Virus record (IMG/VR): IMGVR_UViG_2648501437_000010
Span: 1 to 30,031 of that record
Source: a virus
Lineage: Duplodnaviria; Heunggongvirae; Uroviricota; Caudoviricetes
Length of the DNA stretch: 30,031 nucleotides
Strand: one strand, 5' to 3'
Below the pieces are notes generated by a model. The model was not told where the DNA came from. It saw only the letters and a program-made list of their open reading frames with translations, and made no database searches. Positions 1 to 17,800 of this stretch are shown here, piece after piece. The translations under genes and the position numbers were made by a program. Every line of letters starts with the position of its first letter. Positions within the stretch are counted from its first letter, which is position 1.

Positions 1-31
1 GGTTTTTTACTGGTTGATACTGTTTTTGTCA
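1..31 (-). CDS. 5' end of a gene that runs off the window (N-terminus M-T-K-T-V-S-T-S-K-K)
   Basis: ATG at complement 29-31 preceded by GAGGTGA 8 nt upstream; lies 26 nt downstream of the TGA stop of the zinc-ribbon ORF. Only about 10 codons are visible. Confidence 0.3.
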
Positions 32-59
32 TGTGAGTCACCTCTGACTGAGAGTTTAC

Positions 60-434
60 TCACTTAGCCGCGTGTCCACTATTGCTGGGTAAGATCAGAT
101 CACCAGCGAAGCATTTACCGACGCCACTGGTCAGATTGAAATATACCTTCCAGTTGGAGCTGCCGCATACCGGACACTCCTTGATATTCACTTCACGACC
201 GCGAGTACTCACGCCTCCACGTCGATAAACGATACCTTCAGTGTCCAACCATTGTTCAAAATCTAATTCGGTAATTAGCTCTTTCAGCTCGCTCACGATA
301 ATTCCACTTTTAACAGGCAATATTGTGACCAACCTAAATGTTGATATAACATAAAGGCTCATGTGTTTTTCTTTTGTGGTTTGGCAAAAGAAAAGTTGTT
401 TCACCAATGAATCAAGCGTGGAGGTGTTCTCCAC
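60..434 (-). CDS. zinc-ribbon protein with a primase-type zinc-binding motif; start uncertain (GTG at 434 or ATG at 362)
   Basis: C-terminal CPVCGSS-x15-GKCF resembles the N-terminal zinc ribbon of T7-type primases (CxxCGSS...C). Sits immediately downstream of the helicase gene. Only three Cys are visible before the TGA stop at 60-62. Confidence 0.45.
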   Translation of the reverse strand: MENTSTLDSLVKQLFFCQTTKEKHMSLYVISTFRLVTILPVKSGIIVSELKELITELDFEQWLDTEGIVYRRGGVSTRGREVNIKECPVCGSSNWKVYFNLTSGVGKCFAGDLILPSNSGHAAK

Positions 435-1784: not shown

Positions 1785-1827
1785 GTGCTTTCCTTTGTTT
1801 TTTAAACAAATTGTTTTCTAGTATTAG

Positions 1828-2600: not shown

Positions 2601-2818
2601 CACAATGAGCGGATGATAGCGACTGGTGGCAGTTTTTGGAAGTGAAAACGGAAGGGAGTTGTTCTGGTGATGTCTTTTAAAAGACCTGCTTCCGTATATA
2701 TTTAATAAGTTACTTATTATTTATATACAGAAACAGGCTCCTAATGGATACCAAGAACAACATAATTTGACTCCAACCCCAGATGCTATGTCATTGACAG
2801 ATTTATCAAGGGAGATCA

Positions 2819-2827
2819 TGTTAGAAT
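2819..2827 (+). promoter_or_regulatory. candidate extended -10 promoter element (TGtTAGAAT) for the plus-strand gene
   Basis: TG-n-TAGAAT at 2819-2827 in the AT-rich divergent intergenic region; TTGACA at 2794-2799 is present but with a 22-nt spacer, so the -35 is doubtful. Confidence 0.3.
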
Positions 2828-2857
2828 CAGTGTTTTAGCCTCGTGGATATTGTCACC

Positions 2858-3916
2858 ATGCGCATGAATAGACTTCCAGGATATGGCCTTCCCGAACTGG
2901 CTTTTTGGCCTCAGCCTAAATATGAACGGAATAAATGGTCGATGTTCTGTCTGAAACTCCGTAATGATGGAACCCTTGCTTGGTATCGGCGATATGTTGA
3001 TCGTGGTATGCCAAACCACGCTTTTGATGACGACTACGATAACTATCCTGAAGCAAGAAAAGCGGCATTAGAGCTGAATAAAAACGTGAGCTTTGACATT
3101 GAAAAACTTCCTCTATCTATGTTTCAAAAGAAGTCATTGCGTTTGAAAGTTGACAAAGCACTCAAAGCCAAATCACGTCTCATGGATGAAGAGCATATAA
3201 TGCTCAACGAAGCAATTAAGGCACACGCCAACGATCCGCGAGTGACATTAAATGAGTTAATAATTAACCCAGATTACGAAACTTTGCGTCAACCCCTTTT
3301 TGACGTGCTAAGCGAGATGCCTTACTTACATTTTGTTTTTCTTCCCAAATTCCAAGTTTCACTTCAACTCGTTGCTCCTAACACTTGGGAATGTTCATAT
3401 AACAACAAAGCTAAGACAGCGAAGATCTGCTACCAAGAACGCATAGCCAGAGGTTTTGGTTTATCAGGTGCTGCACATTGGGGAAAAACAAAAGCGACTA
3501 TTCGCTCAATGCTTCTGCCGCGTGCTAACCGGTTACTGCAACTCGCCAGCGTAAAAAGAATGCTGGATGAAGCTCTCAGGAATGGGCAAAAGGTACTGGT
3601 TGTTGGCAACTTTGTTTTCTGGTTTGAGGACAAAAATCAGGTAGGTTGGAGTGTTAAAGTTGCTAGCGAAAGCGAAACCACCTCAAGAGGCAATACGCTC
3701 TGGAAAGAAGGAACTATCATTTCAAAAAATCACGGTCGAATTGTCGTGCTGCCGTATACAAAAGAAAACGGTAAACATGTAAAAGGTTATACCAAGAATG
3801 CCCCTAACGACGGCAACGCAATTCCGAGACATAAGGATGAGTATGTCGAGTTGCCCTTTGAAATTTTGGATGGTGACTTGATGTTCAGTCTGTTCGGTGA
3901 GCTTAACTACGAATAG
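2858..3916 (+). CDS. hypothetical protein, the only plus-strand gene in the window
   Basis: Long ORF (track 2843-3916 from GTG; first ATG at 2858, giving 352 aa); TAG stop at 3914-3916; convergent with the partition genes and followed by a hairpin. No motif I can assign. Confidence 0.55.
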   Translation: MRMNRLPGYGLPELAFWPQPKYERNKWSMFCLKLRNDGTLAWYRRYVDRGMPNHAFDDDYDNYPEARKAALELNKNVSFDIEKLPLSMFQKKSLRLKVDKALKAKSRLMDEEHIMLNEAIKAHANDPRVTLNELIINPDYETLRQPLFDVLSEMPYLHFVFLPKFQVSLQLVAPNTWECSYNNKAKTAKICYQERIARGFGLSGAAHWGKTKATIRSMLLPRANRLLQLASVKRMLDEALRNGQKVLVVGNFVFWFEDKNQVGWSVKVASESETTSRGNTLWKEGTIISKNHGRIVVLPYTKENGKHVKGYTKNAPNDGNAIPRHKDEYVELPFEILDGDLMFSLFGELNYE

Positions 3917-3936
3917 CTTTCATAGAACGAAATATT

Positions 3937-3968
3937 TCTAAGGCTGTCCAATGCAGACCAGCCTTAGA
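3937..3968. terminator. stem-loop between convergent genes (about 10-bp stem tctaaggctg / cagccttaga, 12-nt loop); candidate bidirectional terminator
   Basis: Inverted repeat lying between the plus-gene stop (3916) and the ParG-like gene stop (3977); flanks are A/T-rich but there is no clean U-tract. Confidence 0.4.
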
Positions 3969-3976
3969 GATTTATA

Positions 3977-4336
3977 TCAACCTTTCTTCATTAACTCGCG
4001 TTTAATTTCATCGGTTCGCATCGTGACATCGGCAGCGGTGATCGCCTCATTCAATTTCACGATGTCCTCGATTTCCTGCGGTGACTTCTCTGCCAGATGG
4101 AAAATGGCTGCTCGAATCACGTCAGAACGAGTGAACTTCTCGAAGCGAGGGATGAACTTCATCATCTCCAGCAGTTCGAAGTATTCGTCCTCCAGTGACA
4201 TTGTGCGGCTTTTAATTTTCTCTTTGCCACGAGTCGGGCGTCCCTGTGGTCTGACTGGTTGGCGCAAAGGAGTTGTGTTCTTAGCCGGTGCATCAGGCTC
4301 TTTGCGCTTTGCTAGGTCACCCATTTTCATGGACAT
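3977..4336 (-). CDS. small partition-protein candidate (ParG-like centromere-binding protein)
   Basis: 119 aa; basic, Pro/Arg/Lys-rich N-terminal tail followed by a short C-terminal folded region; ATG overlaps the parA stop (TAATG), implying translational coupling. Size and position fit a type Ib ParA partner. Confidence 0.5.
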   Translation of the reverse strand: MSMKMGDLAKRKEPDAPAKNTTPLRQPVRPQGRPTRGKEKIKSRTMSLEDEYFELLEMMKFIPRFEKFTRSDVIRAAIFHLAEKSPQEIEDIVKLNEAITAADVTMRTDEIKRELMKKG

Positions 4337-5004
4337 TATTCTTCTTCCTCCAGACTCAACAGATAATCTACAAATTCTTCAAACTCGGCTTCCGCCTTTT
4401 TGTCGCGCTCGCTACCGGTCATTTCAAAGATAGAACGACCAGACTCTTCCGCATCATCATAGACGTTGCGGTTATATAGATTGACTGGCGCAGACTCGAT
4501 GCCAAACGTCTCAACAATCTCTTTAGCCGCCAGAATGCGAGACACTTGTGATGGCAAAGCCGGGCACTGGTTCATGACCGCGCGGACCTTCACTTTATCG
4601 TTTACATTACGAACATTGTCGATAATAGGATCAATGTCACGCAGAGATTTCAAATCACGACGCTTAGGACGAAGCGGGATAATGATAACGTCGGCCATCA
4701 GCATCGCTTGTCGCTGAATTTCGGAGTCAAAGCCACCAGCATCTACCACTACAAACTCAGCTCTACCCTGAAGCGATTTTAGGTGCTTAATGATGTCATC
4801 CTGAACGTATGCAAAAGGAATCAGCTCAAGGTCTTCGTTCTGTCGACGGTCTTCACACCAGCTTGTTGTCGTGCGCTGAATATCTATATCAGTGATATAA
4901 ACCTTCTTCTTCTTTTTGACTTTCAGGCAAACGGCAATTTGCTGGGCAACGGTGGATTTGCCAGGCCCGCCCTTTGTGCCGCCAACCACAAAGATCTTGG
5001 TCAT
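4336..5004 (-). CDS. parA: ParA/Soj-family partition ATPase (small, type Ib-like)
   Basis: 222 aa; deviant Walker A KIFVVGGTKGGPGKST at the N-terminus, no N-terminal HTH extension; AAGGGA RBS. Confidence 0.85.
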   Translation of the reverse strand: MTKIFVVGGTKGGPGKSTVAQQIAVCLKVKKKKKVYITDIDIQRTTTSWCEDRRQNEDLELIPFAYVQDDIIKHLKSLQGRAEFVVVDAGGFDSEIQRQAMLMADVIIIPLRPKRRDLKSLRDIDPIIDNVRNVNDKVKVRAVMNQCPALPSQVSRILAAKEIVETFGIESAPVNLYNRNVYDDAEESGRSIFEMTGSERDKKAEAEFEEFVDYLLSLEEEE

Positions 5005-5130
5005 TGGAGAGTTCCCTTTGCGTATATAATTATCGTCTGAAACAACTTGTTTTCTTATATGTGATATAGCCTAAATGCCTACGGCTGCGGTGTAAAGGTT
5101 TAATGATAGGTACATAGGTGGGCTTAATAA

Positions 5131-5154
5131 CAAAAAACCCGCCGTAGCGGGTTT
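5131..5154 (-). terminator. rho-independent terminator ending the 5911-6330 / 5153-5926 operon
   Basis: On the minus strand: AAACCCGC-tacg-GCGGGTTT followed by TTTTTTG; GC-rich stem of 6-8 bp, 4-nt loop, U-tract. Overlaps the TAA stop at 5153-5155. Confidence 0.7.
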
Positions 5155-5926
5155 ATTGATTCATAGATCGTTTACTCAGAATGTTCACTATATGAGTACA
5201 AGCACCTGGGGTGAGATTGATTTTATTAGTCCCCCACTCTTCACGTCTTCGCATCTGGCCTCCGTCAGACTTACCGATATCCCACGGAATAAAACCACTT
5301 ACGCCACAGGCATCCTCACCCAATTCCTCTATAAAATTTTCGTTCTTCGTATCGTAAATTTCGACCAGTCCATGTTTGCGCATACTCACAGCCCAAAGAG
5401 TTGCGCCTTTTATCGTCTGTAACGTATCGCAAACCAAGTACTGATACTTATCTACGAGATAAAGGTAAGCAAAACTTGCGATGCCTAATCCCATATAATC
5501 AGCATGAGTAAAAACCCCTCTAATCTGCTTGGCGCTGACTTTTACTCCAGATTTATCCTTGATTGGAAACTCGCAGTAGGCCACGCGGAAGACTGTTTGG
5601 ACTGGCTGCCCCACATGCAACTTGTAGGATTCAATTTCTGCTCCTATCTCAAGAGGTGTGTAACCAGCACGTTTGAGTCGCTTAACTTCCTGCTCTTGGT
5701 AATCAGGATCACATGACTCAAGACACTCGCCAACAATACAGCGTTCATAGGCCGAATCAACAAGCTCGTATTCGGTAAATCGAATTAGATCGAAACCTCG
5801 GGAGATAAAATAGAACTCACCGAGAGCGATAATTCTCGTCGCTCTCGGCATTTCAGACAAGACCTTGCTGTAGTCTTCTATTTCAGGGATTAATCTGTTC
5901 GCCTGACCAATTAGAGATGGTGCCAT
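5153..5926 (-). CDS. hypothetical protein; weak GNAT-acetyltransferase-like motif
   Basis: 257 aa; segment HADYMGLGIASFAYLYL resembles GNAT motif A (h-P-x-Y-x-G-x-G-I-G/A). Start overlaps the upstream ORF by 16 nt. No other recognisable motif. Confidence 0.5.
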   Translation of the reverse strand: MAPSLIGQANRLIPEIEDYSKVLSEMPRATRIIALGEFYFISRGFDLIRFTEYELVDSAYERCIVGECLESCDPDYQEQEVKRLKRAGYTPLEIGAEIESYKLHVGQPVQTVFRVAYCEFPIKDKSGVKVSAKQIRGVFTHADYMGLGIASFAYLYLVDKYQYLVCDTLQTIKGATLWAVSMRKHGLVEIYDTKNENFIEELGEDACGVSGFIPWDIGKSDGGQMRRREEWGTNKINLTPGACTHIVNILSKRSMNQ

Positions 5927-6330
5927 GAAGTATTCTGTGCCGTTGATGGTTCCATATCATCGATTTTACAGAATTTCTTCATAAAAGACTCTACAACTTG
6001 TTTGATTCGTGAAGAAATATCACGATCTAAACACTTCAAGTCAGGATATTGTTCAGCAACATCTAAAACAAAAGAGGTTCGTTTACCGTTAGCGACAACC
6101 TCGGCCAACGGTTTAACCAGTGACGTAGAATTAGAGACCTTTTCGGCACGCGCCACATCGCTCTTAAAAGTGACGATGAAGTGCTGGCGGTTAGCTGATT
6201 CACGGCACAACATACGTCGCACTTCTACTGCGTCTTCACTGTTGTGAAAACGCATAGGAAAGCTGTCGATAACCGCAGTATTGGTGCGGATCGTCTGCAT
6301 AGAACGCGTATTGTCATGATAATTTAGCAT
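5911..6330 (-). CDS. hypothetical protein
   Basis: 139 aa; ATG at 6330 with AAGGTGGA RBS; preceded by a 209-bp structured non-coding spacer. Confidence 0.5.
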   Translation of the reverse strand: MLNYHDNTRSMQTIRTNTAVIDSFPMRFHNSEDAVEVRRMLCRESANRQHFIVTFKSDVARAEKVSNSTSLVKPLAEVVANGKRTSFVLDVAEQYPDLKCLDRDISSRIKQVVESFMKKFCKIDDMEPSTAQNTSWHHL

Positions 6331-9164: not shown

Positions 9165-9301
9165 AAATATATCCTTATACTTTTAAGCAGGGGCTGGTTT
9201 AGCTCCAGCCCCGATTGAAGTTGTTTATTATTTAGGTGAATTTAACTTCGTTTCAAGCTCCTCAACCCTTTTGGTCAATTGCTGAATATGATGAATGAGA
9301 C

Positions 9302-9331
9302 AAGGCCCGATAGCGGGCCTTAATTTTTATT
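9302..9331 (+). terminator. 8-bp GC-rich stem-loop (aaggcccg-atag-cgggcctt) followed by TAATTTTTATT; terminator-like only in the plus orientation
   Basis: Perfect inverted repeat 9302-9309 / 9314-9321 followed by a T-run; lies directly 3' of the tfa stop on the minus strand, where it is preceded by A-run and followed by only a weak U-poor tail. Confidence 0.35.
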
Positions 9332-9857
9332 CAGGCTTTTGTGGCCATTCGGGCTTTGCTGTATCCACACGGTTGACCAGAACGCTGTAGCGTTCCCATG
9401 ACTCCAGTCGTGTACGCTCCTCATCCGTCGCCATATTCAGCCTGACAGCGCGTTCCAGTGGCTGAATAACGCTTTCAGCTTCAGAAAGCAACGCGGCCTT
9501 TTGTGATTCGGCCTGTTGTTGTTGCTCGTCTGCCGTATAAATCCGTTTAACCACAGCTCCGTCCCTAAACATCCACTTACCGGAATCATCAGCGCGGCGG
9601 TTGGCTGTAATATCTGGAACCTCAACGACGCTATAACCTTCAGGGTTAAGCGTGGAGGCATCTTTGGTGATGGCGACAATAATATTATTTGCATCGTAAA
9701 CAATCTTTATTGTGTCTGGCTGAAAGTTCTTCACTTCCTCATACCAGTTTTTTCCGTCTTCGGACCATAACCAGATAACATCAAAATTCTTTGTTAGCTG
9801 ATATTGTTCTTTCGTTTTAGGATTTCCAGACTTAATATTTTTTAAATGCTGCATCAT
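9327..9857 (-). CDS. tfa: tail fibre assembly chaperone (Tfa / Caudo_TAP family)
   Basis: 176 aa; C-terminal [30 protein letters not shown] is typical of Tfa proteins; ATG directly follows the fibre stop (TAAATG). Confidence 0.8.
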
Positions 9858-12800
9858 TTACACCTGTGCGACGTTATACCATGTGCCATTGATGTATTTT
9901 TGTATTGGCCTGAATACTGCTGGGTCATCACCATCAACAGCGCCAATAATGCCAAGCCCTGTAATTACATGACCTGATTTTTCATACATCACACCTTTTC
10001 GCATAGTCTGAACAACACGTGTACCCAGGCGAACATCTTTTACATAGCGTGAATCAAAATTCCCCCAGTTGTTGGGCTGTATCTGACCGTTAACAGAAAA
10101 TATTACCGAGTTATCTGTATTTCGCTGACTATAGAAATGCCAGCCTGAATCATCACCAAGCTCTGCAACAGTTGGTCTTGACGAATTTCCCCACAAGTTA
10201 AATGATGCATTACGGGCAGCGGTATTTGAGCTTGAAAGTGTGAATAACTTACTTTCCCCAGTCTGAATACCCTTTAATGATATTGCTGAACCATTTCTAA
10301 AGCGGAATACATGCACACCATTAGCATAAGCATCCAGCACCCCATCACCATTTTGTTTAAACCCGGTATCGTTATCTCCTAAAACTATTGAATTGCCACC
10401 CAGGGCATTAGCCGTTCCAATCCCCAGATTTCCGCTAAAAATGGCATTAATACCGAATATTGAGTGAGAACAATAAAACCCTCGCCCATTGTTAAAATCA
10501 AGAATAGCTTGCGCGTTCGTGCTTTCTGTCGCGGGATTAGTTGCTCCCCACTTATATGTTGTTTGACCGACGGTATAATCCTGAGTTGGAACAATAACCG
10601 TTAGCCCTTCTTCAGCAGAAACCCGCACAGGAAAAGCCCTGCCTTCAACGTAAAAAACGCTGCATACATCATCTTCTTTAAGGCTTGTTACAATGGAATG
10701 GATTGCGCGCTCATTAGTCTGATACGTCGAAAAATAACCTGCCGCATATGAACCACGATCAGTCCAGCCACCAGGCATTACCATTCCATTGAATTCGCAG
10801 TTATTCATTTCGTAATTACCACCGGCAGATGTGGTCGTTATAATCACTCTGGAAGCCAGCTCGCCAGTGCTGCCTGTGGAACGCCGGAAAATAACTGGAT
10901 ACCACTTTCCACCAACTGCATTAGACGGCGCATTAAATGCGTACTGCCGCATTCCTTTTTTCTTATCCACTTCGCCTTTGCTGTAAACATTAATGTTACT
11001 CAGGAAGCGATCTTTATCAGGAATATCCGCGCCGTTCTGGTTTTTTTGCAATGATCCAGCGGCTAATTCTACGGTTTGCTCAAGATTTAAATCTTCCGCC
11101 GTTAGCTCAATATTTTTAGAACCATCAAACGAGACGCCGTTGATAGTACATGCTGTCTGCAACTTGGTCGCTGTCGCTGCATTACCGGTTGTGTTCTGGT
11201 TACCAGCAATGTTTACACCCGGCAGGTTGATATCGGCAGAGCCATCAAACGCCACACCAGCAATTTTCCTTGCTGTCTGCAATTTTGTGGCGGTTGCGGC
11301 ATTACCAGTAGTGTTCTGATTACCAGTTGTATTCACACCAGGGATTGAATCCTTAGCGGTATATACCTGTGCCCACGCTGACCATGCTGCATCAGTGGTA
11401 TCTCTTCGGGAGCGAATGAAAACCGGCGCATGTGCACCGCTCGTACCACTCCAGCCAATAAGCAACTCACCCTCGCCAGCAGCACTCGCACCTTTCATGT
11501 GCAATACGTTGCCATACGTGGTCGGATAGCTATTGTTGTACGCCTCGTACATTTGAATGCCAGCAGTGCCTTGAGTAGAGCCGCTTAACGCCGTAACTCG
11601 GCCACGAGATACCAATGTATTAATGTTGATATCGCCTGAGCCATCAAACTTAACACCATTGATGTTTCTCGCTGTTTGCAACTTCGTAGCTGTTGAAGCA
11701 TTACCGTTCAAACTACCATTTATGCCACCAGTAACATTTAGTCCATTACCAATAGACACAACACCGCTAGTATTATTAATTGTAATCGGTCGCAAGCCGT
11801 TCCATGAACCTAACGTATCTCCTGATGCTGTTAGCATGAAATATGTGCTGCCGCCGTCATTACGGATAAAGAACCCAAAGCTACCGTAAGCAATGCGGAA
11901 ACCATTTGCATATTTTGAAACGATCTCACCAGAAGATGTCAAACCTCCAGATAATGTACCACCGGTAAGAGGTAATGCACCAACGTCAGATGCAGTTGGT
12001 TTGTTTTTCGTGTTATATACTCTTCGCCATCCTGGAGAATAATCTGTGCCATTAAATACATAGATAAACTCCGCATTAGTGAGAGCACCGGAAACACTTG
12101 TCGTTGTGGCCGTTGTTATGCGGATCGTATAATTATTTGAACTACTACCGTTATTAAATACTTCTATAACAGCTCCTGCCAATGGAATAACGCCACAACC
12201 AGTTTCACTATTTGGTATGGTTGCGCTATTGGCATAGGCCCACGCACATCGAGCAATCCATGCCTTTGTGTTAAAGGCTCCATTATTTTGCAATAACGTC
12301 ACTAACTGGGCTGTTGTTATTGCTCCGCCATTACTTCCTGTAGTTAACCAACCAGTAGGAGATGCCGGGCAACCTATATTTGCTGGCGACAAGGAAATAT
12401 TTGCCGAGCCGTCAAACGACACCCCATTGATAGTACGCGCAGTCTGCAACTTCGTAGCAGTAGCCGCATTACCTGTTGTATTCTGATTACCAGTCGTATT
12501 AACACCTGGCAAATTAATATTTGCAGTACCATCAAAGCTCACGCCGCCGATAGTTCTTGCCGTCTGTAGTTTTGTAGCAGTTGCGGCATTACCAGTGGTG
12601 TTCTGATTACCCGTAGTGTTTACACCTGGAAGATTAATATTGGCAGAACCGTCGAAACCAACTCCACCGATAGTTCTTGTCGTCTGTAATTTCGTTGCTG
12701 TACTTGCATTACCATTCAATGAACCAGTTAATCCGCCTGTAACAGACAACGGACCAGAAACTGTTCCTCCGGTTGTTGGCAGTGCTCCAATATCTGATGG

Positions 12801-14893: not shown

Positions 14894-17800
14894 TTACAGA
14901 AGGCCAATTCTTACTCGTAGGACGTTGTTATCGTCATAAACGTCAATCCGCTGACCATTTATGACCAGTCGCCCATTGCCGCCGCTATTACCGTTGATCT
15001 CAAGCGTTCCATTTTTGCCGAATCGCCATCCAGATCTACCGCTAACAAAATTGGTAGATTGCAGATCGCCTACTTTTGCATTGGTGATTGTGCCATCCTT
15101 GATATACGCTCCATTCATATAGGCGATACTGTTTTCGATAACAAATGGCGTTGTGATCTTCCCGTTAACAGAGTTGACCAAACCAAACCTGTCCGCCTGA
15201 ACCAAAAACTGAGATAGCCCAGTGGTGTCAATACCAAGCGCAATACCGGCAACATACTTCTGCCCTCCGCTCGTTGAAGTCTCCATTTTCAACGTCCACG
15301 CGGTTGACACTTTTTTGTTGGTATCAGCAATAGCTGTTGCCTGCTGTTGAATTGTCGCGGTATTTCCATCCACCTCTGCTTTCAGAGTATCGATTCGCCC
15401 ACTCAGAGCATTATCTGCCTGCGTTCTCGCTGTCGTTTCAGTTGTTACCGCCGCGGAAATGTTGGCTGCCGTTTGAGACTCTAAGTTTGTGATTTGAGTC
15501 GCCAATGCAGCATCTTGCTCTGTACGCGTTTTCGTTTCGGTTGCTACAGCCGCTTTAATATCCTCTTTGTATTGAGAGGTCAGCTTGGTGATCTGAGACG
15601 ACAACGCCGAGTCAGCATCAGTTCGAGCCTGCGTTTCAACTGCAACGGCCGCACTAATATCTTTCGCTGTCTGTGCTTTTAAACTTGAAACCTCTTTTGT
15701 TAAAGCGGTATCACCATCAGCACGAGCCGTTGTTTCTCTGGCAAGAGATGCCTCGAGATCATTAGCTTTTGCTGTAAGAGACGAAATCTGAGTGGACAAT
15801 GCACTATCGGCATCAGTCCTTGCCTTTGTCTCTACAGCAACCGCTGCGGCAATATCAGTTCCGGTTTGTGCTCGCAGGCTGTTAATTTCTCGTGAGAGCG
15901 CCTGGTCAGCACTTGCTCTGGCCTCCTGCTCCTGAGTGATGGCAGCGGATATATCACCGTCAACCTTTGACTGAAGCTGGTTTATTTGTTTGGCTAACGC
16001 AGAGTCCCCGCTTGCTCGGGCCTCCTGCTCACTACGTATTGCAGCAGAAATATCATCATCAACCTTTGCCTGAAGTTGGGTGATCTGGCTTGCCAGAGCC
16101 GAATCTTCCGTTGCTCGGGCTTCTTGCTCTTCCTTAATAGCTGCGACGATATCGTTGCTTACTTTCGACTCAAGCTGAGTGATCTGTGTCGTCAGAGCTT
16201 CATCGGCAGATGTACGAGCCTCCTGCTCTGTACTAATCGCCGCGCTGATATCTCCTTCAAACTTAGATTGCAGCTGAGTGACACGCTTTGCCAACGCTTC
16301 ATCGCCATCGGCACGAGCGGTGGACTCTTCCAGAATACTGGCCTTAATGTCTTCGCCAATTTCTACGCGAATTTCCTCAACCTTCGTGGCCATTGCAGAC
16401 ATATCATCAGCAAAGGTTTTCTGTGTTGTTGCGATCTTCGCGTTATTGACCATCTGCTTGTGCTGGTCTTCATCTTGACGAAGAGCCAGGTCAATATTTG
16501 TTTTGGCCAAAGCCTCAATGTTCGTAGTCAGTTCTGCACTGGCACGATCGACCTCTGCAACCGTCTTTTTCATTTCTTCAACGGCAGCGGAGCTTTCCTC
16601 TACCGTTGACTGCAACACTTCCAGTTGTTTAGCGTTTGCAGCATCACCTTCAACACGAGCCTCGCTTTCCTTAGCAATAAGAGCCGCCGCTTCATCTCTT
16701 GCAGCCTTTATTGCCTCGACTGTATTAGCGAGAGCTTTATCGTGTTCAGATACGGTATTTTCGATTTCAACAATTGCAGCATCAGTAGCATCAATTTTTT
16801 CAAACGCTTCATTGACCTTGTCGATCGTTGCCGAAACCTCACCTTTAAGCTCGGTTTGTGCGTTCTCCAAAGCATCGCTACGCTCGTTGAATTTTATTTC
16901 AAAATCCGCGAGGTTATCGCTGAACTGCTTATCTAATTCAGCTATATCTTCCTTAACGTCGTTTACCGCCCCCTCCAAAGATTCGACGCTCTGGTTGATA
17001 TGCTCATTTAACTCGTCAACGGCTTCTTGAGAGGCTTTGCTGTTGATGTCCTCAAGCAGAGCCTGACCAAGCTCGGAAGATGTAATTTTGCCAGTCAGGA
17101 ACGACAGTACATCGCGAGTTGTCGCCTCTGTACCCAAGTTTGAGTTCGGAGGACTTAACATACCTCGCTTGTTCGATGCTCGAACCCAGTAATACCACGT
17201 TTCGCTATCCCCAAGACCAGCATGTGTAAAGGTGGTGCTTGCAGACTCTGCGATCAGTTTCGCCGTATCCAGATTATTGGTCTGGGACGCGTAAACATTA
17301 ATGTGATCAAGGTCTACCGAATCTGGATTAACCCAATTCAGTATCACATTACGATAGTCTCCAACGGCCGTTAATGACGTTGGGGCATCTGGCGGTGTCA
17401 TTGTGCCCAGCACCTGATAAACGGTACTGATAATCTCTGTTTTTTTACCGTTGAATGAAACCGCATACAGCTGGAAGTCGTAGCGTCCATTCTCCGCAAC
17501 ATTAACGATTTCGTATTGCTCTTCGGTTACACGCGCCGATTGCCAGTTCGATACATTGTTTTCATCAGAACGTCGCCAACTGATCCAATACTCTGGAGAT
17601 TTCCCTTCCCATGTTGCAGTCAGTTTTACTGACAGGTTGCCAGGGCTTGAGAGATAAGTCCCTTCGGTGATTTGCAAATTAGACGGCTTGGAGTAAGTCG
17701 GGTCCAATACCGTCGTATTTTGCGGGATAAGCGTTGCACCATTGTCGATCGCCTCATATTTAGACGGATTGTTCTCAACAGCGGTGATGTCAAAGCTACC

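What the first reader, a model, noticed from the sequence alone, without database searches (positions are those of the whole stretch)
3977..5130. Plasmid-type ParA / small ParG-like partition pair inside a phage late-gene region (phage-plasmid signature)
4336-5004 encodes a small ParA with a deviant Walker A (GGTKGGPGKST) and no N-terminal HTH. It is translationally coupled (TAATG) to a 119-aa protein with a basic, disordered N-terminal tail and a small C-terminal domain, the architecture of type Ib centromere-binding proteins. No integrase is present in the window. The upstream region (5005-5130) contains a direct repeat ATAGGT-ac-ATAGGT (5106-5119) and AT-rich palindromic stretches that could be the centromere or operator. 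Together with the DnaB helicase and primase-like genes, this suggests the element is maintained as an extrachromosomal prophage.
Basis: partly seen in the sequence, partly recalled or inferred. Interest (0 to 1): 0.5.

Follow-up and report, generated by a model that had tools for sequence, protein, structure and literature searches.

The report
Partition cassette of SSU5-type phage-plasmid

Summary
Window 4336-5004 (-) encodes a 222-aa ParA with a deviant Walker A and no N-terminal domain. It overlaps by one base (TAATG) a 119-aa gene (3977-4336, -) with a basic, disordered tail and a helical C-terminal domain.

The window is 96-99% identical to ~104-112-kb E. coli plasmids of the SSU5/pHCM2 phage-plasmid family. 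In 5,426 complete E. coli genomes the cassette occurs 265 times, always on plasmids.

The closest solved relative of the ParA is ParF of TP228, a type Ib ATPase. The small protein has no annotated family. It gives repeated sub-threshold matches to ribbon-helix-helix families and always follows this ParA, even at 27-32% identity.

The proposed centromere repeat (ATAGGT-ac-ATAGGT) is not supported. Only one copy is conserved, and such repeats occur by chance in about 20% of stretches this size. The conserved upstream DNA (5040-5111) is a sigma-70-type promoter plus a 13-bp palindrome. That palindrome recurs at about 18 promoters across the element, and also in pMT1, which lacks this cassette. 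The true centromere remains unidentified.

Verdict: an uncharacterised member of a known kind, in an already known element. Interest is low to moderate.

The parts
4336..5004 (-). parA: 222-aa small Walker-type partition ATPase. Deviant Walker A is K11-GGPGKST. Asp117 aligns with ParF Asp111.
   Evidence: ORF and sequence. Pfam MipZ/AAA_31/CbiA/ParA. NCBIfam ParA_partition 115.7 bits over the full length, below the 180-bit cut-off. PHROG 164 ParA-like, E 4e-51. ParF (4dzz), E 1.2e-10 over residues 9-199. It is the only ParA homologue in a complete 110.8-kb relative.
3977..4336 (-). 119-aa partner gene, the probable centromere-binding adaptor. It has a basic disordered tail (1-46) with invariant MGDLAK and PQGRPTRGK. 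A putative ribbon-helix-helix core spans a strand at 43-47 (SRTMS), helix 48-60 and helix 70-84 (FTRSDVIRAAI), followed by two extra helices. Alternative starts are at 4330 and 4324.
   Evidence: PHROG 5111, unknown function. aCcr1 (ribbon-helix-helix) family, E 2e-4, matched by 10 of 14 family members. Pfam RHH_1 at 17.1 bits (cut-off 20.5) in a relative. It always lies directly downstream of the ParA.
5091..5096 (-). -35 hexamer TTTACA of the par promoter (inferred)
   Evidence: -35 and -10 hexamers with exactly 17-nt spacing are kept in 9 lineages whose spacers differ (alignments). It fell below the threshold of the consensus scan.
5068..5073 (-). -10 hexamer TAGGCT of the par promoter (inferred)
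   Evidence: TAGGCT is found in 7 of the 9 sequences compared (5 of 7 distinct lineages), TAGTAT or TAACAT in the others.
5069..5081 (-). TAGGC-att-TAGGC direct repeat with 8-bp period, overlapping the promoter spacer and -10. An inverted RCCTA lies at 5107-5111. This is the only par-specific repeat and a candidate operator or centromere box set.
   Evidence: It is unique in the 110.8-kb relative, against 0.15 expected. It is conserved in the E. coli, Salmonella, Klebsiella and Enterobacter lineage but not in the divergent lineages.
5040..5053 (-). Palindrome AAAACAA-g-TTGTTT, about 14 nt downstream of the -10. It is the most conserved non-coding stretch, but it is an element-wide motif and not specific to par.
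   Evidence: There are 18 sites in the complete relative against 0.29 expected, and 6 in pMT1, which lacks this cassette.
5013..5017 (-). Shine-Dalgarno AGGGA, 8 nt before the parA ATG
   Evidence: Sequence
5131..5154 (-). Intrinsic terminator of the upstream gene (5153..5926). It isolates the par promoter from read-through and lies outside the conserved cassette.
3934..3971 (.). 13-bp-stem hairpin between the convergent genes 2843..3916 (+) and the 119-aa gene (-). It is a probable bidirectional terminator and is lineage-specific.
   Evidence: I2. Conservation drops at 3977.

Best explanation
This is the active-partition cassette of an SSU5/pHCM2-type phage-plasmid.

Shown:
- A discrete 1.13-kb module (3977-5111) consists of a promoter, a small ParA and a translationally coupled 119-aa gene.
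- The module is carried almost only by ~100-130-kb, mostly non-mobilizable enterobacterial plasmids with SSU5 phage genes.
- In complete E. coli genomes it is always extrachromosomal.

Inferred mechanism, by analogy with type Ib systems such as ParF/ParG of TP228:
- The ATP-bound ParA dimer associates with the nucleoid.
- The small protein dimerises through a ribbon-helix-helix-like core (residues ~43-84) and binds one or more specific sites on the element.
- Its basic flexible tail (invariant MGDLAK and PQGRPTRGK) contacts ParA and stimulates its ATPase.
- Replicated prophage-plasmid copies are thereby moved apart before division.
- The small protein probably also represses the par promoter (TTTACA-17-TAGGCT), whose -10 region overlaps a TAGGC-N3-TAGGC repeat.

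In addition, the promoter carries the palindrome found at about 18 promoters of the element. The par operon is therefore probably also under the control of an element-wide regulator.
For: - Identity of the element.
- Plasmid-only location: 265 of 265 places in 5,426 complete E. coli genomes. Of the PLSDB records carrying the cassette, 703 of 737 are non-mobilizable.
- ParA family. ParF is the best solved relative. There is a single ParA homologue per element.
- Tight coupling of the two genes in all lineages.
- The pair is kept together down to 27-32% identity of the small protein, in syntenic ~110-kb contigs.
- Disordered basic tail and helical domain.
- Ribbon-helix-helix signals: aCcr1 family in 10 of 14 members, RHH_1 in 2, ParD in 1. 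aCcr1 is a ribbon-helix-helix factor (PMC9976878).
- Sharp cassette boundaries at 3977 and 5111.
- Conserved promoter geometry.
- The TAGGC repeat is unique in the element.
- Type Ib properties used for the analogy come from PMC3130281 and PMC7308502.
Against: - No experiment exists on this system in the literature searched.
- There is no similarity to ParG.
- No repeat array of the kind typical of type Ib centromeres was found. The TAGGC pair is absent from divergent lineages even though the putative DNA-reading strand is invariant.
- NCBIfam ParA_partition scores below its cut-off.
Confidence: 0.78

Rival explanations
1. The 119-aa protein is a global regulator as well as the partition adaptor, comparable to KorB of RK2 or omega of pSM19035. 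It would bind the dispersed palindrome AAACAAnTTGTTT, so that the ~18 palindromes serve both as operators and as multiple centromeres.
For: The palindrome is the only upstream element kept in 8 of 9 lineages of the cassette, alongside an invariant SRT.S strand in the protein. A 13-bp palindrome suits a ribbon-helix-helix dimer. It occurs at 18 sites against 0.29 expected, all at promoters.
Against: pMT1 of Y. pestis shares the phage backbone and keeps 6 well-conserved palindromes at orthologous promoters. It has no homologue of either par protein by tblastn, and uses a P1-type ParA/ParB instead. Lineage L030 has the gene pair but no palindrome.
Confidence: 0.1
2. The ParA works with the two ParB/Srx-domain proteins encoded about 33 kb away (SSU5_125/126 homologues). 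The adjacent 119-aa protein is then only a transcriptional regulator or is unrelated.
For: SSU5 and its relatives carry two genes annotated 'ParB-like partition protein'. A recent screen uses 'parB' as an SSU5 marker gene (10.1101/2025.09.12.675607).
Against: The ParB/Srx genes are not linked to parA. They sit next to the terminase genes and are retained in pMT1, which lacks this ParA. Small ParAs lacking the N-terminal domain normally pair with the adjacent small protein (PMC7308502). The 119-aa gene is translationally coupled to parA in every lineage.
Confidence: 0.06
3. The pair is not a partition system. Either the ATPase is a MipZ-like or other positioning or regulatory ATPase used in the phage cycle, or the small gene is a RelE/ParE-type toxin as annotated in phage Cyrano.
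For: The top Pfam hit by E-value is MipZ, and RefSeq names many orthologues 'division plane positioning ATPase MipZ'. Phage Cyrano annotates the small gene as 'RelE/ParE putative toxin'.
Against: The MipZ match covers only the N-terminal P-loop half (profile positions 2-150 of 262), whereas ParA_partition and ParF align over the full length. There is no RelE/ParE hit in Pfam, NCBIfam or PADLOC, and the predicted all-helical domain with a disordered tail is unlike that fold. Large low-copy plasmids need a partition system, and this is the only ParA on the element.
Confidence: 0.05

Closest known systems
ParF-ParG-parH of plasmid TP228 (type Ib partition)
   Same: Both have a small ParA without an N-terminal domain, and ParF is the best solved match (E 1.2e-10). 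ParF Asp111 aligns with Asp117 here. A small partner is encoded directly downstream, with a flexible basic N-terminal tail and a small probable ribbon-helix-helix domain. The regulatory DNA lies upstream of the operon. A box repeat with 8-bp period (TAGGC-N3-TAGGC) recalls the ACTC tetramers of parH separated by AT-rich spacers (PMC3130281).
   Different: There is no detectable sequence similarity between the 119-aa protein and ParG. The partner here is longer, with two extra C-terminal helices and a longer inter-helix loop. Only two or three boxes are present, against the ~100-bp array of parH. The promoter also carries an element-wide palindrome.
SSU5 / pHCM2 / pECOH89 phage-plasmids
   Same: The window is colinear with these elements. 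It is 86% identical to SSU5 across the cassette and 96-99% identical to E. coli members. The gene order is the same: tail, lysis, par, helicase-primase. The family is described in PMC7969092 and PMC3999498.
   Different: This copy has an IS3 end inserted in the primase gene. It also has its own accessory genes on both sides of the cassette.
delta-omega of pSM19035 and KorB/IncC of RK2 (partition proteins that are also global regulators)
   Same: The par promoter shares a dispersed palindromic site with many other promoters of the element.
   Different: The palindrome persists in pMT1 without these par genes, so a different protein probably reads it. KorB is an HTH ParB protein, not a small ribbon-helix-helix protein (own knowledge).
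P1 ParA-ParB-parS, also used by pMT1 (type Ia)
   Same: It plays the same biological role, segregating a plasmid prophage. In pMT1 it replaces the present cassette on a related backbone.
   Different: Type Ia ParA is about 400 aa with an N-terminal regulatory domain, ParB is a large HTH protein, and parS lies downstream. None of these features applies here.

Membership tests
Type Ib (small) ParA partition ATPases | Deviant Walker A, KGGxxGK[ST] | tested here: met
   GGTKGGPGKST at residues 8-18. It is invariant in 18 loci.
Type Ib (small) ParA partition ATPases | About 200-230 aa, with no N-terminal HTH or regulatory domain | tested here: met
   The protein is 222 aa, and the P-loop starts at residue 8.
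Type Ib (small) ParA partition ATPases | Full-length sequence similarity to characterised members or curated models | tested here: inconclusive
   ParF (4dzz) gives E 1.2e-10 over residues 9-199. NCBIfam ParA_partition gives E 2e-33 over positions 6-202 of 203, but 115.7 bits is below the 180-bit cut-off.
Type Ib (small) ParA partition ATPases | A small centromere-binding partner encoded directly downstream in one operon | tested here: met
   There is a TAATG overlap. An overlap or a gap of at most 5 nt occurs in all lineages, and the pair is kept in distant relatives.
Type Ib (small) ParA partition ATPases | Stabilises a low-copy replicon in cis with its centromere | not testable with these tools
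   This needs a plasmid stability assay.
Ribbon-helix-helix centromere-binding proteins (ParG, omega, pB171 ParB type) | Ribbon-helix-helix DNA-binding fold | tested here: inconclusive
   All matches are sub-threshold: aCcr1 family E 2e-4, matched by 10 of 14 members; RHH_1 at 17.1 bits against a 20.5 cut-off and E 0.11 in two relatives; ParD at E 0.12. The helices sit where expected, but the monomer model shows no strand. There are no fold matches.
Ribbon-helix-helix centromere-binding proteins (ParG, omega, pB171 ParB type) | Flexible, basic N-terminal tail that contacts the ATPase | tested here: inconclusive
   The tail is present: net charge +9 over residues 1-46, pLDDT below 50 for residues 1-25, and conserved MGDLAK and PQGRPTRGK motifs. 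Contact with ParA was not tested.
Ribbon-helix-helix centromere-binding proteins (ParG, omega, pB171 ParB type) | Binds an array of short repeats next to the operon | not testable with these tools
   Only a TAGGC-N3-TAGGC pair plus an inverted RCCTA was found. No array is present.
ParG family proper (Pfam ParG) | Sequence match to ParG | tested here: not met
   No Pfam ParG hit appears for any of 12 members at E up to 10.
SSU5/pHCM2 phage-plasmids | Colinear similarity to SSU5-group genomes, with siphovirus structural genes together with plasmid functions | tested here: met
SSU5/pHCM2 phage-plasmids | Maintained extrachromosomally | tested here: met
   In complete E. coli genomes there are 0 places on chromosomes and 265 on plasmids. 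The relatives are circular records of 100-130 kb. For this particular contig it is inferred, because the window ends inside an IS3 element.
MipZ (division-plane positioning ATPase) | Full-length match to the MipZ model | tested here: not met
   Only residues 4-132 match profile positions 2-150 of 262.
RelE/ParE toxins (annotation of the small gene in phage Cyrano) | Match to RelE/ParE models or fold | tested here: not met
   There are no hits in Pfam, NCBIfam or PADLOC. The predicted structure is helical with a disordered tail.

The most novel reading that the evidence does not exclude
The par operon is wired into an undescribed element-wide regulon. A 13-bp palindrome (AAACAAnTTGTTT) sits just downstream of the -10 at about 18 promoters of SSU5-type phage-plasmids, including those for replication, nucleotide metabolism, the terminase region and par. 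In the boldest version the 119-aa partition adaptor itself reads these sites. One small protein would then be both the centromere-binding protein and the master regulator of the prophage, with many dispersed centromeres, as KorB is in RK2.
Probability: 0.1. Interest if true: 0.55.

Novelty: new member of a known kind. Interest (0 to 1): 0.27.

Why it matters
SSU5/pHCM2-type phage-plasmids are present in about 5% of complete E. coli genomes. They are also common in Klebsiella, Salmonella Typhi and Shigella, and they carry resistance genes (PMC9600943).

Their stable inheritance presumably depends on this cassette. Yet the adaptor protein is labelled 'hypothetical' everywhere, or mislabelled as a toxin, and the ATPase is often mislabelled MipZ.

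A correct annotation, defined cassette limits (3977-5111) and a mapped promoter give a direct handle for curing or incompatibility experiments. The finding does not change what is known about partition mechanisms or about phage-plasmids.

Tried and rejected
- Profile searches of PDB sequences with A1 and A2 gave only chance hits.
- An exhaustive HMMER search of 1.84 billion representative proteins found only 18 relatives, so no annotated distant homologue could be reached.
- Searches for a centromere-like array found none in or next to the cassette. There is no region of suppressed variation inside the coding sequences.
- The palindrome 5040-5052 was rejected as a par-specific centromere after it was found at 18 promoters and in pMT1.
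- Rfam found nothing relevant in 3700-5400.
- PADLOC found nothing in the flanking accessory genes.
- The literature searches found no experimental work on SSU5-type partition or on the palindrome.

Full report

Yes, in its main points. On the minus strand, 4336..5004 is a 222-aa ORF beginning MTKIFVVGGTKGGPGKST. Its stop overlaps, as TAATG, the start of a 119-aa ORF at 3977..4336.

The first ORF is a ParA/MinD-type P-loop ATPase:
- Pfam MipZ, AAA_31, CbiA and ParA.
- NCBIfam ParA_partition, E 2e-33 over the full model, but 115.7 bits against a cut-off of 180.
- PHROG 164 'ParA-like partition protein', E 4e-51.

The P-loop starts at residue 8, so there is no N-terminal HTH domain.

The 119-aa protein has 13 K/R and 4 D/E in its first 46 residues. 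The AlphaFold2 model shows residues 1-25 at pLDDT below 50 and helices at 48-60, 70-84, 86-98 and 101-118. The sequence ATAGGT-ac-ATAGGT is at 5106-5119.

**2. What is the element?**

The cassette and its surroundings match the SSU5/pHCM2 family of phage-plasmids.
- The region is 99% identical to E. coli plasmids of 104-112 kb (NZ_CP024271, NZ_LR882992, pECOH89).
- It is 97-98% identical to the Escherichia phages PhiR41_1 and Cyrano, 86% to Salmonella phage SSU5 and about 80% to Klebsiella phage-plasmids.
- The window is colinear with positions 29.4-57.3 kb of the circular 110,777-bp plasmid pRHB19-C05_2.

The gene order there is primase, DnaB-like helicase, par, lysis genes, tail fibres, tail and tape measure. 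The cassette therefore lies at the junction of the late (tail/lysis) module and the replication module, not inside the late genes.

In 5,426 complete E. coli genomes the 1,135-bp cassette is present in 264 genomes. There are 265 places on plasmids and none on chromosomes.

The family and its plasmid lifestyle are well described (PMC7969092, PMC3999498, PMC12977533).

**3. The ATPase**

Its best solved relative is ParF of TP228, at E 1.2e-10 over residues 9-199. ParF is the archetypal type Ib ATPase, and its partner is the ribbon-helix-helix protein ParG (PMC7308502). ParF Asp111, which is needed for the ParG interaction, aligns with Asp117 here.

A complete relative has no second ParA homologue.

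**4. The small protein**

It belongs to a very narrow family.
- The word-indexed search found 25 clusters.
- An exhaustive HMMER search of 1.84 billion representative proteins found 18.
- Where a source gives a name, it is 'hypothetical protein'.

For every member whose context I examined, down to 27-32% identity, the gene lies directly after a 221-229-aa ParA. Two of these contexts are syntenic ~110-kb contigs. The junction between the two genes is an overlap or a gap of at most 5 nt in all 18 loci.

Across the family, L8, I41, R44, S47, E49, R70, D72, R75 and L81 are invariant. SRT.S.EDE and (T/S)R(S/T)DV.RAA are nearly invariant. This is the strand, helix and N-capped second helix pattern of ribbon-helix-helix proteins.

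Library support is consistent, but every match is below its threshold:
- The aCcr1 family, a ribbon-helix-helix factor (PMC9976878), matches at E 2e-4 and is matched by 10 of 14 members.
- Pfam RHH_1 scores 17.1 bits against a 20.5 cut-off in one relative, and E 0.11 in another.
- A ParD antitoxin model scores E 0.12.

There is no match to ParG itself, and the structure searches were uninformative. 'ParG-like' is therefore justified for architecture and probable fold class, but not for family membership. The 'RelE/ParE toxin' label in phage Cyrano has no support.

**5. The upstream DNA**

Homology between more than 700 plasmids begins at the stop codon of the small gene (3977). It ends at about 5111.

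Only the inner ATAGGT copy (5106-5111) is inside this block, and the outer copy is specific to the window's sub-lineage. Such a 6-mer repeat occurs in about 20% of 126-nt stretches.

Two features are conserved.

(a) A sigma-70-type promoter, TTTACA (5096-5091), then 17 nt, then TAGGCT (5073-5068). Nine sequences from seven distinct lineages were compared. All keep a -35-like and a -10-like hexamer exactly 17 nt apart, while the spacer sequence diverges: TTTACA, TTGTCA or TTGTTT with TAGGCT, TTTACA with TAGTAT, and TTGACC with TAACAT. The simple consensus scan missed this promoter because it matches only 8 of 12 positions.

(b) The palindrome AAAACAA-g-TTGTTT (5053-5040), about 14 nt downstream of the -10. 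It is present in 8 of the 9 sequences (6 of the 7 lineages) and is the best conserved non-coding stretch.

**6. The palindrome is not specific to par**

A second perfect copy lies 20 nt upstream of the helicase start, at 1804-1816.

The complete relative has 18 copies at up to one mismatch, against 0.29 expected. All lie 11-60 nt upstream of start codons. Most follow a GATAAT-type -10. They head the transcription units for cobT, dnaB, parA, the terminase region, nrdB, a methylase gene and many small ORFs.

pMT1 of Yersinia pestis shares the phage backbone but uses a P1-type ParA/ParB. It has no homologue of either protein studied here. It still keeps six such sites at orthologous promoters, against 0.18 expected.

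The simplest reading is an element-wide operator read by another conserved factor, with the par promoter as one of its targets. I found no paper describing it.

The only repeat specific to par is TAGGC-att-TAGGC (5081-5069), with an inverted RCCTA at 5111-5107. It is unique in the 110.8-kb relative, against 0.15 expected. Its 8-bp period recalls the tetramer boxes of parH (PMC3130281). However, it is missing from divergent lineages. The centromere therefore remains unidentified.

**7. Mechanism**

Shown:
- The gene pair, its coupling and its conserved boundaries.
- The promoter geometry.
- Exclusive plasmid carriage in complete E. coli genomes.
- One ParA per element.

Inferred from type Ib systems:
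- The small protein dimerises and binds a site on the element.
- Its tail activates nucleoid-bound ParA-ATP.
- The resulting ParA gradient separates the copies.
- The same protein probably represses its own promoter.

**8. Rivals**

A distal pair of ParB/Srx genes, annotated 'ParB-like partition protein' in SSU5, is unlikely to be the partner. They sit beside the terminase genes and persist in pMT1 without this ParA.

It is weakened by pMT1 and by lineage L030, which has the gene pair but no palindrome.

The MipZ and toxin labels are annotation artefacts.

**9. Novelty and score**

The element, its ParA and its plasmid-prophage nature are already known. The following are new but incremental:
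- The assignment of the 'hypothetical' partner as a type Ib-style adaptor.
- The cassette limits and the promoter.
- The observation that the par promoter shares an element-wide palindrome.

I rate it as a new, uncharacterised member of a known kind, with interest of about 0.27.

Noticed in passing
window 1804-1816 and 5040-5052; L021-L023 (NZ_CP057658.1), 18 sites; L024-L025 (pMT1), 6 sites: A dispersed 13-bp palindrome AAACAAnTTGTTT (extended form AAG-AAAACAAnTTGTTTA) sits just downstream of sigma-70-like -10 hexamers. It lies at the heads of about 18 transcription units of the phage-plasmid, against 0.3 expected. It is kept in pMT1. It looks like the operator set of an element-wide regulator, and I found no description of it in the papers searched.
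   Followed up: partly
window 1-97 and 60-296 (-): The left end of the window is the terminus of an IS3-family element (100% identical to many IS3 copies). It is inserted in the DNA primase gene and leaves only about 66-78 N-terminal codons, including the zinc-finger CPVCGS motif. This copy of the phage-plasmid may be defective for lytic replication.
   Followed up: partly
window 2746-3974 and 5112-6330: Both flanks of the par cassette are variable accessory slots. Here they hold a 357-aa gene on the opposite strand (PHROG 22329, unknown function) and two unknown genes (PHROGs 3307 and 2594). Relatives carry a DUF2971 gene, a GNAT/KacT-DUF1778 toxin-antitoxin pair or a HEPN protein at the same places. 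PADLOC gave no hits for the window's genes.
   Followed up: partly
L021 18371-19474 (NZ_CP057658.1); L025 37222-38325 (pMT1): Complete relatives encode a site-specific integrase about 14 kb from par, outside the window. Its absence from the window therefore says little. It may serve multimer resolution, as Cre does in P1 (own knowledge), but this was not examined.
   Followed up: no
L022 16611-17959; L014 14817-16183 (SSU5_125/126): Two tandem ParB/Srx N-terminal-domain genes and small ABC-type ATPase genes lie next to the terminase genes in all backbone relatives, including pMT1. They are annotated 'ParB-like partition protein', but they are not linked to the ParA.
   Followed up: partly
window 4336-5004: RefSeq names orthologues of this ParA inconsistently: 'AAA family ATPase' in some records and 'division plane positioning ATPase MipZ' in others. 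The partner is labelled 'RelE/ParE putative toxin' in phage Cyrano. Both labels look wrong.
   Followed up: yes
window 9300-11225, 12442-12714 and 15912-16129: The distal part of the 1647-aa tail-fibre gene has no match in the closest relative, consistent with host-range cassette exchange. In-frame long tandem repeats occur in the tail-fibre gene (120-nt period) and the tail-tip gene (99-nt period).
   Followed up: no
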